From positions 25,670-89,669 of IMG/VR virus record IMGVR_UViG_3300007513_000984: a DNA stretch of 64,000 nt. One strand, written 5' to 3'. Of this stretch, positions 29,187 through 30,463 are shown in pieces (position 1 is the stretch's first letter; each line of letters begins with the position of its first letter). Position numbers and translations under genes: made by a program. This stretch comes from a virus. The notes beneath the pieces were generated by a model, which did not search any database, had not been told where the DNA came from, and saw only the letters and a list, made by a program, of their open reading frames with translations.

Positions 29187-29438
29187 ATGACTAGTAAAAA
29201 CTATGAAAATTTGAAATGGTTTGCGACATTTATGTTTGTTCTTGCTGGAGTATTGATATCTCTGAATATAGAACAATCTAAATGGGCTTTTCCATTATTC
29301 GCAACAGGACATATGACTGTGCTGTTCGTATTTTTAAGATTAAAGGATAAGCCAATGATTTTTCAGAATAGTTTCTTCTTGGCTATTGATTTCTTAGGAA
29401 TATATCAGTGGTTATTGGCGCCTATATTTTTTGTTTAA
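29187..29438 (+). CDS. Small 3-TM membrane protein (PnuC/SemiSWEET-like)
   Basis: Three hydrophobic segments, ends LGIYQW; GAGAG SD favours ATG 29187; late motif CTAAATA at 29150. Confidence 0.55.
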   Translation: MTSKNYENLKWFATFMFVLAGVLISLNIEQSKWAFPLFATGHMTVLFVFLRLKDKPMIFQNSFFLAIDFLGIYQWLLAPIFFV

Positions 29439-29859
29439 GGCTTTTTAGATACTCAGTAAGAATTTTTGAACTTCCCACTCGTACATTGATAATACCATTA
29501 TAGTATTCATCTGTTTCTAAGACTCTTCGGTCAAATTGTTCTTTTGCTTCTAGGTAACTCATTGCACCACGACTAGGACAGTAGTGGAGTATTTCACGTG
29601 TAAATTTATCTTGGCCTAATTTTTTTACATCGGCATTTAAATAGTCAGAAGAACCCCAATAAGTTCTCCAATCACTTTCTTTATATCCACGTCTTTTGTT
29701 CTTTCTGCCTTTAAGAGGTGGTTTTGTTGTTTTAAATCGTGATAACTTCTTACCAATGTACTTACGATTATCTACAAGATTTGTAATTATATACACAAAT
29801 CCCTCAACATTCTCAGGTAATTCATCTACAACTTTATTTTTATATGTCCATTCACTCAT
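29422..29859 (-). CDS. Free-standing GIY-YIG endonuclease, 145 aa
   Basis: GFVYIITNLVDNRKYIGKK, YWGSS, FTREIL, conserved Glu (YLEAK) and YYN. Confidence 0.9.
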   Translation of the reverse strand: MSEWTYKNKVVDELPENVEGFVYIITNLVDNRKYIGKKLSRFKTTKPPLKGRKNKRRGYKESDWRTYWGSSDYLNADVKKLGQDKFTREILHYCPSRGAMSYLEAKEQFDRRVLETDEYYNGIINVRVGSSKILTEYLKSLKQKI

Positions 29860-29874
29860 GGTGTTCTCATTCTA

Positions 29875-30428
29875 ATAGGTCTAAAGACCTAATATCTTCG
29901 GAAATCTTCGATTTCCTCGATATTTCTTTTTTCAATTCAATATTATTTATCCGCTTGTCAGTTCGGAAGACACAATTGCCCATCCGACTGGGCAACTGCT
30001 GAGATACTTGTCAAGTTCATCAGACTCTATGTCTAAGTTAGCCACTAGCAATGGCGAGGTCGGTTGGCGATTCCCTCGTAACTTAGTATTGCGTCTTTCG
30101 ACCCAACGGCACTTTGAATAATCCACATAGAATAAAATATCATCAAAGTTGGTAGTGTTTTTAACCTACCTGCGGTTTGTACATTTCTGTACGGTAAATA
30201 CTAGTCATTCAATACCTTTAGAGTATTGAATGTTTTGATACAAACAATTTTGTGGTTAACGAGAAGCAGTGTCGGAGTTCACCCAACTTATCCGAACGTA
30301 TGTAAAATATACGCCCTCAATCCCGAGTCGGCATCCCGACTAACAGTTCCACTATGTAATGCCGTATTAGTTCTTTATTAGTTCTTTGGGGATTTGTATT
30401 AGATTTGAATCGATTTATATTAGTTATG
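29875..30428 (-). ncRNA. Candidate large (~550-nt) highly structured ncRNA
   Basis: ORF-free, more than 10 hairpins, GAAA tetraloops and G-U pairs that work only on the minus strand; has its own sigma70 promoter. Confidence 0.75.
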
Positions 30429-30434
30429 TTGAAC

Positions 30435-30463
30435 ATACTAACACAAAGGAAAAGGGATGTCAA
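30435..30463 (-). promoter_or_regulatory. sigma70 promoter of the large ncRNA
   Basis: Minus strand TTGACA-N17-TAGTAT with extended -10 TG. Confidence 0.8.

What the first reader, a model, noticed from the sequence alone, without database searches (positions are those of the whole stretch)
29422..30463. Large ornate ncRNA with its own promoter directly upstream of a minimal GIY-YIG nuclease: candidate RNA-nuclease system
Seen: about 570 nt without an ORF in an otherwise gene-dense genome, with a minus-strand TTGACA-N17-TAGTAT promoter. An unstructured A/C-rich leader (AAATC x3, AAGAACTAATA x2) is followed by dense structure. Hairpins include AGTCGG/CCGACT, GCGTAT/ATACGT, TCGGA/TCCGA, CATTCAATAC/GTATTGAATG, GTACA-GAAA-TGTAC, GGTAG/CTACC, ACTTTGA/TCAAAGT and GTC-GAAA-GAC. 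A long-range CTAAGTTA/TAACTTAG helix encloses two stems, followed by CAGTTGCCCA/TGGGCAATTG and two more hairpins. It lacks tRNA, tmRNA, RNase P and group I core motifs. The co-oriented 145-aa GIY-YIG is essentially a bare catalytic domain with a basic loop (KGRKNKRRG) and no obvious C-terminal DNA-recognition domains. Known: homing GIY-YIGs such as I-TevI carry such domains, and HEARO/omegaRNA-IscB is precedent for large RNAs partnering nucleases. Inference: a ribonucleoprotein nuclease, or an independent GOLLD/ROOL-class phage RNA. Caveat: a late motif (GATAAATA, 29944-29951) could express the nuclease separately.
Basis: partly seen in the sequence, partly recalled or inferred. Interest (0 to 1): 0.88.

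Follow-up and report, generated by a model that had tools for sequence, protein, structure and literature searches.

The report
Large knotted phage RNA beside nuclease
The gene-free stretch is a real gene for a roughly 410-base RNA folded with three pseudoknots; uncultured marine giant phages keep it next to a small, very conserved DNA-cutting enzyme gene, its job is unknown, and nothing shows that it guides the enzyme.

Summary
Observation confirmed. Window 29860-30440 (minus strand) holds a promoter-driven, non-coding, strongly structured RNA. The core is about 408 nt (30356-29949), about 570 nt with leader and tail. On 45 distinct homologues, 99 proposed pairs are 95.7% canonical. Forty pairs change on both sides (0 of 500 shuffles reach this), and each of three pseudoknots covaries. 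Contigs from four marine metatranscriptome studies cover it.

No Rfam family matches this copy. Sister-clade RNAs share its 3' core, "twin box" and synteny, and they carry Rfam Polynucleobacter-1 (RF01718) as their 5' domain, so the family is partly catalogued.

The 145-aa GIY-YIG protein is a bare I-TevI-like catalytic domain. It is inherited vertically under strong purifying selection, not spreading like a homing endonuclease.

RNA and nuclease are adjacent and co-oriented in two gene orders: 69 of 69 loci in a second clade found through the RNA alone. However:
- five relatives carry a PD-(D/E)XK nuclease in its place;
- phage Melnitz has an 81%-identical nuclease and no detectable RNA;
- no guide-like segment is seen.

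Best reading: an autonomous ornate RNA co-expressed with a DNA-structure nuclease. An RNA-protein particle is possible (about 0.2). This scan had already found the family on other genomes.

The parts
30435..30463 (-). Sigma-70-type promoter TTGACA-N17-TAGTAT with a TG extension; predicted start near 30428
   Evidence: Exact match and top-scoring site in the region. It is conserved in 11 of 14 aligned homologues.
30450..30470 (-). Hairpin AAAAGGG-TTGACAT-CCCTTTT just after the orf93 stop, with the -35 box in its loop (terminator-plus-early-promoter, PeSL-like)
   Evidence: Found by the terminator-like scan. It is present in close relatives only. The PeSL concept comes from PMC4122927.
30357..30434 (-). 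Unstructured A/C-rich leader with repeated (A)CUAAUA(C/U)AAA words (ACTAATA x3 within 60 nt)
   Evidence: The repeat number varies and the words are conserved in all clade-A homologues. Other clades use a different repeated word, CAGACACCAAGUC.
30250..30356 (-). 5' domain. P1 (GUGG 30352-30349 with CCAC 30255-30252) encloses hairpin AGUCGG/CCGACU and a three-way junction (CGGGA/UCUCG, GGGCGUAU/AUACGUUC, GUUGGG/UCCGAC).
   Evidence: helices 1-5. Helices 2, 4 and 5 have 4, 5 and 2 pairs changed on both sides. P1 and CGGGA/UCUCG are invariant.
30115..30249 (-). Middle hairpins: CAUUCAAUAC/GUAUUGAAUG with a near-invariant CUCUAAAGG loop, GUACA-GAAA-UGUAC (absent in some homologues), GGUAG/CUACC, and ACUUUGA/UCAAAGU
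   Evidence: helices 6, 8, 10 and 11; alignment.
29973..30114 (-). Conserved 3' core: GUC-GAAA-GAC, CUAAGUUA/UAACUUAG enclosing GAGG/CCUC and GCCAU/GUGGC, and the last hairpin CAGUUGCCC/GGGCAAUUG (29998-29973)
   Evidence: 97.3% paired, 12 pairs changed on both sides, 0 of 500 shuffles. Models R1 and R2 were built on it. R2 finds it in other clades.
30063..30107 (-). Pseudoknot 1: GUUGG (30107-30103) pairs with CCAAC (30067-30063) in the loop of GAGG/CCUC
   Evidence: The closing pair switches G-C to A-U in 18 of 45 sequences and 100% of cells are paired (helix 13).
30027..30130 (-). Pseudoknot 2 (long range): CUAUGU (30130-30125), inside the ACUUUGA/UCAAAGU loop, pairs with ACAUAG (30032-30027)
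   Evidence: Four of six pairs change on both sides (helix 12).
30046..30203 (-). Pseudoknot 3: UAG (30203-30201) pairs with CUA (30048-30046) in the loop of GCCAU/GUGGC
   Evidence: U-A switches to C-G in 16 of 45 sequences and 100% of cells are paired (helix 7).
29954..30025 (-). 'Twin box': direct repeat GUCUGAUGAACUUGACAAG (30025-30007) and GUCUUCCGAACUGACAAG (29971-29954) flanking the last core hairpin
   Evidence: A repeat lies at this position in all ten lineages tested. Its sequence is lineage-specific but matches between the two copies. Shuffle counts run from 0/2000 to 724/2000 per lineage. No common pairing partner was found.
29877..29926 (-). Tail: long hairpin (shortened here; UGAG-YG..A-RCGA-capped in relatives), then invariant hairpin AGGUCUUUAGACCU (29890-29877), 17 nt before the SegE start codon
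   Evidence: Equivalent tail hairpins follow the RNA in other clades whatever the next gene is.
29422..29859 (-). 145-aa stand-alone GIY-YIG nuclease (SegE-type catalytic domain plus a basic beta-hairpin KGRKNKRRG and a C-terminal helix)
   Evidence: Pfam PF19835, E 2e-34; phrog_447. AF2 model pLDDT 87.8. Best PDB fold is the I-TevI catalytic domain 1LN0, prob 0.91. 62 invariant columns in 24 sequences.

Best explanation
This is the gene for a large, autonomous, highly structured non-coding RNA of a phage-specific family.

Anatomy and expression (shown). The host RNA polymerase is predicted to start at a sigma-70-type promoter right after the baseplate genes gp26/orf93. It would transcribe an unstructured leader made of repeated words, then a core of about 408 nt locked by three pseudoknots, then two tail hairpins, and read on into the small GIY-YIG gene. 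RNA and nuclease thus form a two-gene, co-oriented cassette. The whole group of uncultured marine and freshwater T4-like giant phages (genomes of roughly 335-430 kb) keeps it between gp46 and the baseplate-hub genes. In this clade the RNA comes first; in the other clades the nuclease comes first.

How the RNA works (inferred). The folded RNA acts in trans as a compact RNA particle, in the manner of ROOL, GOLLD or OLE RNAs. Its GNRA loops, near-invariant loops and twin boxes would serve as contact surfaces for itself or for a protein. It is not a programmable guide.

What the nuclease does (inferred). The GIY-YIG protein is most likely a housekeeping DNA-structure-specific endonuclease that works with the neighbouring gp46/gp47 recombination nuclease. 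It is inherited vertically, evolves very slowly, is replaced by a PD-(D/E)XK 'resolvase-like' nuclease in some relatives, and functions without this RNA in other phages. The adjacency is best read as co-expression and conserved synteny. Physical partnership is neither shown nor excluded.
For: The RNA is real:
- z = -4.57.
- 99 pairs, 95.7% canonical, 40 changed on both sides, 0 of 500 shuffles reach this, slid controls 12 or fewer.
- The 3' core alone is 97.3% paired.
- Invariant G-U pairs mark this strand as the folded one.
- The ORFs are not conserved.
- There is one copy in the 89.7-kb record.

Transcription:
- Contigs of four marine RNA-library studies cover the RNA.
- One 734-nt contig spans 29617-30320, from the core into SegE. 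One 613-nt contig spans 29805-30392.

Family:
- 73 loci share the core motif, all placed after gp26-orf93.
- Model R2 finds the 3' core right after SegE in other clades.
- Further-diverged versions with the same layout are visible by eye.
- RF01718 forms the 5' domain in sister clades.

The nuclease is inherited vertically and is constrained:
- Four-fold-site identity between clades is 0.23-0.53, the same range as gp46.
- Protein identity stays at 73-82%, against about 52% for gp46.

The nuclease does not need the RNA:
- Phage Melnitz has a homologue 80.7% identical. It has no large neighbouring gap and no R2 or RF01718 hit in its complete genome.
- phrog_447 members in a cyanophage, a Flavobacterium phage and FelixO1-like phages have no adjacent large RNA.

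The RNA does not need SegE next to it:
- L083, L085, L092, L108 and L129 carry PDDEXK_15 there instead. No SegE was found elsewhere on four of those contigs, L083, L085, L092 and L108.

The slot logic:
- PA5oct has PDDEXK_15 ('RusA-like resolvase') in the same slot between gp46 and the baseplate hub.
- None of PA5oct, Melnitz, S-RIM8 and a Flavobacterium phage has an endonuclease VII homologue.
Against: - The adjacency is tighter than plain synteny predicts. RNA and nuclease stay neighbours and co-oriented although their order is permuted between clades. In the clade found through the RNA alone, 69 of 69 loci have SegE directly upstream.
- Where SegE is missing, another nuclease takes its place. 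This also fits a functional need for a nuclease beside the RNA.
- The nuclease has a basic beta-hairpin insertion absent from the I-TevI catalytic domain. It could bind RNA.
- The twin boxes, two matching and lineage-specific words, look like paired binding sites for a dimeric partner.
- The proposed resolvase role rests on gene position and on the absence of two other resolvase families. FelixO1-like VpaE1 has both a small GIY-YIG and an endonuclease VII.
- No function of the RNA has been tested.
- Contigs cannot show RNA ends, strand or abundance.
Confidence: 0.5

Rival explanations
1. RNA-protein particle. The ornate RNA is the scaffold, regulator or specificity subunit of the minimal GIY-YIG nuclease, a GIY-YIG counterpart of HEARO/omegaRNA-IscB. 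Alternatively it is an RNA that holds the nuclease inactive until needed.
For: - The two genes are adjacent and co-oriented in both gene orders, including 69 of 69 loci in an RNA-ascertained clade.
- RNA-library contigs bridge both genes.
- The nuclease lacks any DNA-recognition domain.
- It has a conserved basic hairpin.
- The twin boxes could be paired binding sites.
Against: - Melnitz has an 80.7%-identical nuclease without the RNA.
- The family phrog_447 is widespread without the RNA.
- Five RNA loci lack SegE and have PDDEXK_15 instead.
- The RNA diverges beyond BLAST recognition between clades while the protein stays about 75% identical.
- There is no long unique variable segment. The variable parts are repeats, loops and A/U-rich spacers.
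Confidence: 0.2
2. Cis-acting untranslated region. The structure is a long 5' UTR here (a 3' UTR in other clades) that controls stability, processing or translation of the nuclease mRNA or of the gene downstream.
For: - No intrinsic terminator separates the RNA from SegE.
- An invariant hairpin lies 17 nt before the start codon.
- A co-oriented gene always follows the tail hairpins.
- RF01718 was originally scored as possibly cis-regulatory (PMC2864571).
Against: - About 400 nt with three pseudoknots is far beyond known leaders.
- The RNA's position relative to SegE flips between clades, and the downstream gene varies (SegE, PDDEXK_15, radical SAM, unrelated ORFs).
- It has its own strong promoter.
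Confidence: 0.1
3. Homing-endonuclease cassette. The GIY-YIG is a selfish Seg-type endonuclease that sits beside its cleavage target, the highly conserved RNA gene. PDDEXK_15 would be a competing mobile nuclease.
For: - The protein belongs to the SegE-type GIY-YIG family.
- Non-homologous nucleases alternate at one site.
- The nuclease lies on either side of the RNA gene in different clades.
Against: - Synonymous sites between clades are as diverged as those of gp46, so there has been no recent spread.
- The gene is present in essentially every locus of a clade.
- It has no DNA-binding domain.
- It is under strong purifying selection.
Confidence: 0.07
4. Ribozyme or intron relic. The RNA would be a self-cleaving, self-splicing or capping RNA, by analogy with group I introns or the lariat-capping ribozyme that precede homing-endonuclease ORFs.
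For: - Pseudoknotted core, GNRA loops and duplicated 'twin box' words that could mark two reaction sites.
- Position next to an endonuclease ORF.
Against: - No hit to any group I, group II, GIR1 or small-ribozyme model at E up to 10.
- No gene is interrupted. orf93 is full length compared with distant homologues.
- RNA-library contigs run through the region without joints (table 5).
Confidence: 0.05

Closest known systems
Polynucleobacter-1 RNA motif (Rfam RF01718; Weinberg et al. 2010, PMC2864571)
   Same: RF01718 is the 5' domain of sister-clade members of this RNA family. It lies directly after the same small GIY-YIG gene and is followed by the shared 3' core, twin box and tail hairpins. 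Scores: L292 98.1 bits, L293 71.2, L065 64.1, L031 63.4.
   Different: The window's RNA gives no RF01718 hit at E up to 10, and its 5' domain has a different branch pattern. RF01718 models only 141 nt and was listed as a possible cis-regulatory motif of Burkholderiales and fresh water. It was not described as part of a 400-600-nt phage RNA.
GOLLD (RF01998) and ROOL (RF03087) large ornate RNAs (cryo-EM study PMC12286853)
   Same: Large size, many helices and pseudoknots, carried by phages, no known function.
   Different: There is no sequence or structure match. This RNA is smaller, is not next to tRNA genes (no tRNA in the window) and is tied to a nuclease gene. Self-assembly has not been tested.
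HEARO / omegaRNA with IscB
   Same: A large structured RNA encoded next to a small nuclease gene and co-transcribed with it.
   Different: The nuclease fold differs (GIY-YIG, 145 aa, no RNA-binding domains recognised). No variable guide segment and no transposon ends are seen. The nuclease family works without the RNA in other phages.
T4 Seg-type free-standing GIY-YIG homing endonucleases and I-TevI
   Same: The catalytic domain belongs to the SegE-type family, and the best structural match is the I-TevI catalytic domain.
   Different: There is no C-terminal DNA-binding region. Inheritance is vertical with saturated synonymous sites, and the gene is near-universal within clades. These are the opposite of selfish spread.
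PeSL promoter-stem-loop modules of T4-like phages (PMC4122927)
   Same: A stem-loop fused to an early promoter at a gene-module boundary (30450-30470 with the -35 box in the loop).
   Different: It is seen only in close relatives. Its role in shuffling the neighbouring gene is not tested.

Membership tests
Polynucleobacter-1 RNA (RF01718) | Match to the Rfam covariance model at or above 37 bits | tested here: not met
   There is no hit on window 29300-30900 at E up to 10, nor at gathering score on the whole window. Sister-clade RNAs score 63-98 bits.
Wider phage RNA family defined here (3' core model R2) | 3' core (GNRA hairpin, enclosing helix with two hairpins, pseudoknot to a loop, terminal hairpin) next to the small GIY-YIG gene between gp46 and gp26 | tested here: met
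   The window scores 145 bits with R2. About 20 loci of other clades score 28-90 bits at the same relative position. Synteny is shown.
GOLLD / ROOL / OLE / HEARO / raiA large RNAs | Match to the Rfam model | tested here: not met
   cmscan against all 4227 Rfam 15 families, at E up to 10 on the region and at gathering score on the window, returned none of them.
Group I / group II intron, lariat-capping ribozyme | Match to the catalytic-core model, and an interrupted host gene | tested here: not met
   No Rfam hit. orf93 upstream is full length against distant homologues. RNA-library contigs show no joints.
RNA-guided nuclease system (omegaRNA/IscB-like) | RNA gene linked to the nuclease gene | tested here: met
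   The two are adjacent and co-oriented in both gene orders, including 69 of 69 loci in the RNA-ascertained clade.
RNA-guided nuclease system (omegaRNA/IscB-like) | Hypervariable guide segment at one end of an otherwise conserved RNA | tested here: not met
   Among close relatives the variable parts are repeat copy number in the leader, hairpin loops and the A/U-rich spacer. There is no unique block of 15-25 nt.
RNA-guided nuclease system (omegaRNA/IscB-like) | The nuclease depends on the RNA (physical binding) | not testable with these tools
   Indirect evidence argues against dependence: an 80.7%-identical nuclease in Melnitz has no detectable RNA.
Seg-type free-standing homing endonuclease | GIY-YIG catalytic domain | tested here: met
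   PF19835, E 2e-34. The fold resembles the I-TevI catalytic domain.
Seg-type free-standing homing endonuclease | C-terminal DNA-binding region | tested here: not met
   The protein has 145 aa and the domain covers residues 4-124. Only one C-terminal helix follows.
Seg-type free-standing homing endonuclease | Patchy, horizontally spreading distribution | tested here: not met
   Four-fold-site identity of 0.23-0.53 between clades tracks gp46. The gene is present in 69 of 69 loci of a clade.
Type III toxin-antitoxin (ToxIN-like) | Tandem array of antitoxin RNA repeats upstream of an endoribonuclease toxin | tested here: not met
   There are only two boxes, which flank a hairpin. The protein has a GIY-YIG DNA-nuclease fold. 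The gene order is reversed in most clades.

The most novel reading that the evidence does not exclude
The ornate RNA and the minimal GIY-YIG domain form a ribonucleoprotein in which the RNA supplies the substrate recognition or control that the 145-aa nuclease lacks. The twin boxes would be the docking sites for a nuclease dimer. This would be the first RNA-partnered GIY-YIG nuclease.
Probability: 0.2. Interest if true: 0.9.

Novelty: new variant of a known kind. Interest (0 to 1): 0.68.

Why it matters
Large RNAs with several pseudoknots are rare, and almost every one that has been understood turned out to be a machine: a ribozyme, a scaffold, a guide or a cage. This family is abundant in ocean and lake giant-phage contigs (hundreds of loci) and is covered by contigs in marine RNA libraries. 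It is tied to a nuclease gene more tightly than any other ornate RNA except HEARO.

The work here also re-reads an orphan Rfam motif. Polynucleobacter-1 is one domain of a much larger phage RNA.

It gives the small 'NAD synthetase'-annotated phage protein family (phrog_447) a concrete, testable role as a slowly evolving DNA-structure nuclease that sits beside gp46/gp47.

If RNA and nuclease do bind each other, this would be a new class of RNA-partnered nuclease.

Tried and rejected
- **GenBank phage DNA.** Searches with the RNA (blastn) and with an 8-kb context (megablast) found nothing.
- **tRNA/tmRNA.** ARAGORN found none in the window.
- **Motif scans.** Three high-GC loci of the first scan (L086, L099, L126) and five of the second (L178, L191, L198, L202, L211) were chance matches in unrelated DNA.
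- **Model R1.** It gave a 29-bit hit inside a large ORF at 18963-19084. The hit disappeared with the broader model R2, so it was treated as false.
- **PA5oct, the closest cultured relative by gp46.** It has a mostly non-coding stretch of about 1.5 kb in the syntenic slot. That stretch gave no convincing R2 hit (best 15.5 bits) and folds weakly (z = -1.85). The four published PA5oct ncRNAs lie elsewhere (PMC7318152).
- **Protein sequence against the PDB.** Searches with the nuclease and with its profile found no relative.
- **Common pairing partner for the twin boxes.** Duplex scans in seven lineages found no site at a consistent position.
- **Pairing of the near-invariant CUCUAAAGG loop with the invariant tail hairpin.** The idea is not supported. 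The one variant (CUCCAAAGG, seen in L092, L087 and L112) has no compensating change in L092, the one of these whose tail hairpin was read.
- **A 5'/3' closing helix (CAUAGU/AUUGUG).** Both strands are invariant and the helix overlaps the last core hairpin, so it was left out.
- **SegE on contigs of phages with PDDEXK_15, and the reverse.** None was found, but the contigs cover only 11-49% of their genomes, so this says nothing about whole genomes.
- **RNA-library contigs.** They cannot give RNA ends, strand or abundance. Parts without cover are not evidence.
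Full report
**Context.** The window is part of an 89.7-kb IMG/VR virus record that CheckV rates 21% complete, so the genome is of the order of 400 kb. Around the finding lie, in window order:
- gp46, Rad50-like (26996-28777, +);
- an Hc1 histone-like gene;
- a PnuC-like 88-aa ORF;
- the GIY-YIG gene (29422-29859, -);
- the 631-nt gap;
- orf93;
- a gp26-type baseplate-hub gene (30709-31557, -).

By gp46 the nearest cultured phages are the jumbo phages PA5oct, Phosso and Atu_ph07, at 41-49% identity.

**The observation.**
- The gap folds far better than shuffles: -155.4 kcal/mol, z = -4.57.
- It matches no Rfam family at gathering score or at E up to 10.
- It holds no tRNA or tmRNA.
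- Its small ORFs are not conserved. The 59-aa frame carries stop codons in most close homologues.

**Homologues and structure.** A search with the nuclease found 590 viral contigs. In the closest ones the gap is conserved at 69-93% identity.

A scan for an 18-base word of the RNA itself (17 specified bases) gave 73 true loci. All lie after gp26-orf93.

On 45 distinct core sequences (alignment A2) I laid a hand-built structure of 18 helices and 99 pairs.
- 95.7% of cells are canonical.
- 40 pairs change on both sides.
- None of 500 column shuffles reaches these values.
- Sliding the partners by 1-3 columns drops pairing to 32-45%, with at most 12 covarying pairs.

Three pseudoknots each carry compensatory changes:
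- GUUGG/CCAAC, G-C to A-U in 18 of 45 sequences;
- CUAUGU/ACAUAG, four of six pairs;
- UAG/CUA, U-A to C-G in 16 of 45 sequences.

Invariant G-U pairs (for example U-G in all 45 at columns 352/358) show that this strand is the folded one.

The core runs from 30356 to about 29949. With leader and tail the unit is about 570 nt.

**Transcription.** Fourteen runs on record as RNA, within 20 holding runs from 13 studies, hold part of the stretch. Contigs of four studies were laid on it and cover the RNA. One spans 29617-30320 (core into SegE). Another spans 29805-30392. These are contigs from RNA libraries, so they show presence and continuity. They do not show ends, strand or level.

**The wider family.** A covariance model of the 3' core (R1, then the broader R2) finds a diverged copy in other clades. 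There it lies immediately downstream of the GIY-YIG gene, on the same strand.

Most nuclease loci have an ORF-free stretch of 450-1100 nt there. Still more diverged versions with the same layout are visible by eye. The shared layout is:
- a leader of repeated words;
- 'CUGUU' followed by a hairpin;
- a terminal hairpin flanked by a direct repeat;
- a GA-capped tail hairpin and a final hairpin.

In one sister clade the 5' domain is Rfam Polynucleobacter-1. L031 scores 63.4 bits, L065 64.1, L293 71.2, and a contig binned as a Polynucleobacter MAG (L292) scores 98.1. So that orphan motif of Weinberg et al. 2010 (PMC2864571) is one domain of this larger phage RNA. The window's own copy does not hit it.

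A 335-kb contig binned as a Neomarinimicrobiota MAG carries the cassette too.

**Is the nuclease a partner?** Evidence for linkage:
- In the window's clade the order is gp26-orf93-RNA-SegE. In the others it is gp46-SegE-RNA. The two genes stay adjacent and co-oriented.
- I retrieved a second clade through an RNA word only, to avoid ascertainment through the protein. There, 69 of 69 loci with enough upstream DNA have SegE directly upstream.

Evidence against an obligate partnership:
- Five loci of the window's clade have a PDDEXK_15 nuclease (PF24608) instead of SegE. Two have a radical-SAM gene inserted between the RNA and SegE.
- Phage Melnitz has an 80.7%-identical protein in another context. 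Its complete genome gives no R2 or RF01718 hit.
- More distant family members (phrog_447, often mis-annotated 'NAD synthetase') in a cyanophage, a Flavobacterium phage and FelixO1-like phages have no large RNA beside them.
- The RNA diverges beyond BLAST recognition between clades, while the protein stays 73-82% identical.
- No unique hypervariable block is seen.

**What the nuclease is.** Its AF2 model (pLDDT 87.8) resembles the I-TevI catalytic domain, with an added basic beta-hairpin and a C-terminal helix.

Four-fold degenerate sites between clades are 0.23-0.53 identical, the same range as gp46. Within the clade they track gp46: 0.62 against 0.77, and 0.58 against 0.57. The gene is therefore old, vertically inherited and under strong purifying selection. 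It is not a spreading homing endonuclease.

PA5oct has PDDEXK_15, annotated 'RusA-like Holliday junction resolvase', in the same slot between gp46 and the baseplate hub. PA5oct, Melnitz, S-RIM8, a Flavobacterium phage and the marine contigs all lack an endonuclease VII homologue.

By inference, with Slx1 as the established precedent for a GIY-YIG structure-specific nuclease, the small GIY-YIG is a DNA-structure nuclease working with gp46/gp47. It can be displaced by a PD-(D/E)XK enzyme. This gives it a role that needs no RNA. The inference is modest, because VpaE1 has both enzymes.

**Unexplained features.**
- A direct repeat, the 'twin box', flanks the last core hairpin in all ten lineages tested. 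Its sequence differs between lineages but matches between the two copies. No common pairing partner emerged.
- The leader is built of short repeated words whose sequence is clade-specific.

Both features fit recognition by a protein or by the RNA itself.

**Verdict.** This is a real, large RNA with three pseudoknots, belonging to a phage family that is only marginally catalogued. It is co-expressed with a conserved small nuclease. Its function is unknown. The guide-RNA idea is not supported, though an RNA-protein particle remains possible.

Earlier agents of this scan reached similar conclusions on other genomes. Points newly tested here are:
- the permuted gene order;
- the RNA-ascertained 69 of 69 linkage;
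- the synonymous-site test;
- the PDDEXK_15/PA5oct slot;
- the direct demonstration that RF01718 sits behind the nuclease gene.

Noticed in passing
window 28982-29150 (+): A TTGACT-N17-TAGTAT promoter (28982-29010) is followed about 95 nt later by a strong intrinsic terminator (29105-29140 plus a T-run). There is no ORF between them. This is a candidate small RNA of about 130 nt, between the Hc1-like gene and the PnuC-like ORF, convergent with the nuclease gene.
   Followed up: no
window 30491-30772 and 30709-31557 (-): The gp26-like ORF and orf93 overlap by 64 nt in different frames. The overlap is kept in the homologous loci examined.
   Followed up: no
window 48691-48897 (-): manA RNA (RF01745) scores 56.1 bits, just above its gathering score of 55.2.
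   Followed up: no
L114 and L143 (oriented 4921-6129 and 11927-13135): A 402-aa radical-SAM protein gene is inserted between the RNA and the GIY-YIG gene in two contigs.
   Followed up: partly
L287 (PBPT01000016.1, 335 kb) and L292, L295 (Polynucleobacter MAG contigs): Contigs carrying phage genes (gp46, small GIY-YIG; L287 and L292 also the RNA) are binned as bacterial MAGs (Neomarinimicrobiota, Polynucleobacter and others). They are probably mis-binned giant-phage contigs, and this may be why RF01718 was named after Polynucleobacter.
   Followed up: partly
L022 4460-4530: The RNA leader in this clade holds three tandem copies of a 23-nt word (CACAGACACCAAGUCAAUUCAAG). One to three copies of CAGACACCAAGUC occur in related leaders.
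   Followed up: no
L302 (PA5oct 75.7-77.2 kb): There is a stretch of about 1.5 kb with only tiny annotated ORFs between the RusA-like/PDDEXK_15 gene and gp337, in the slot where marine relatives carry the RNA. It has no model hit and folds weakly.
   Followed up: partly
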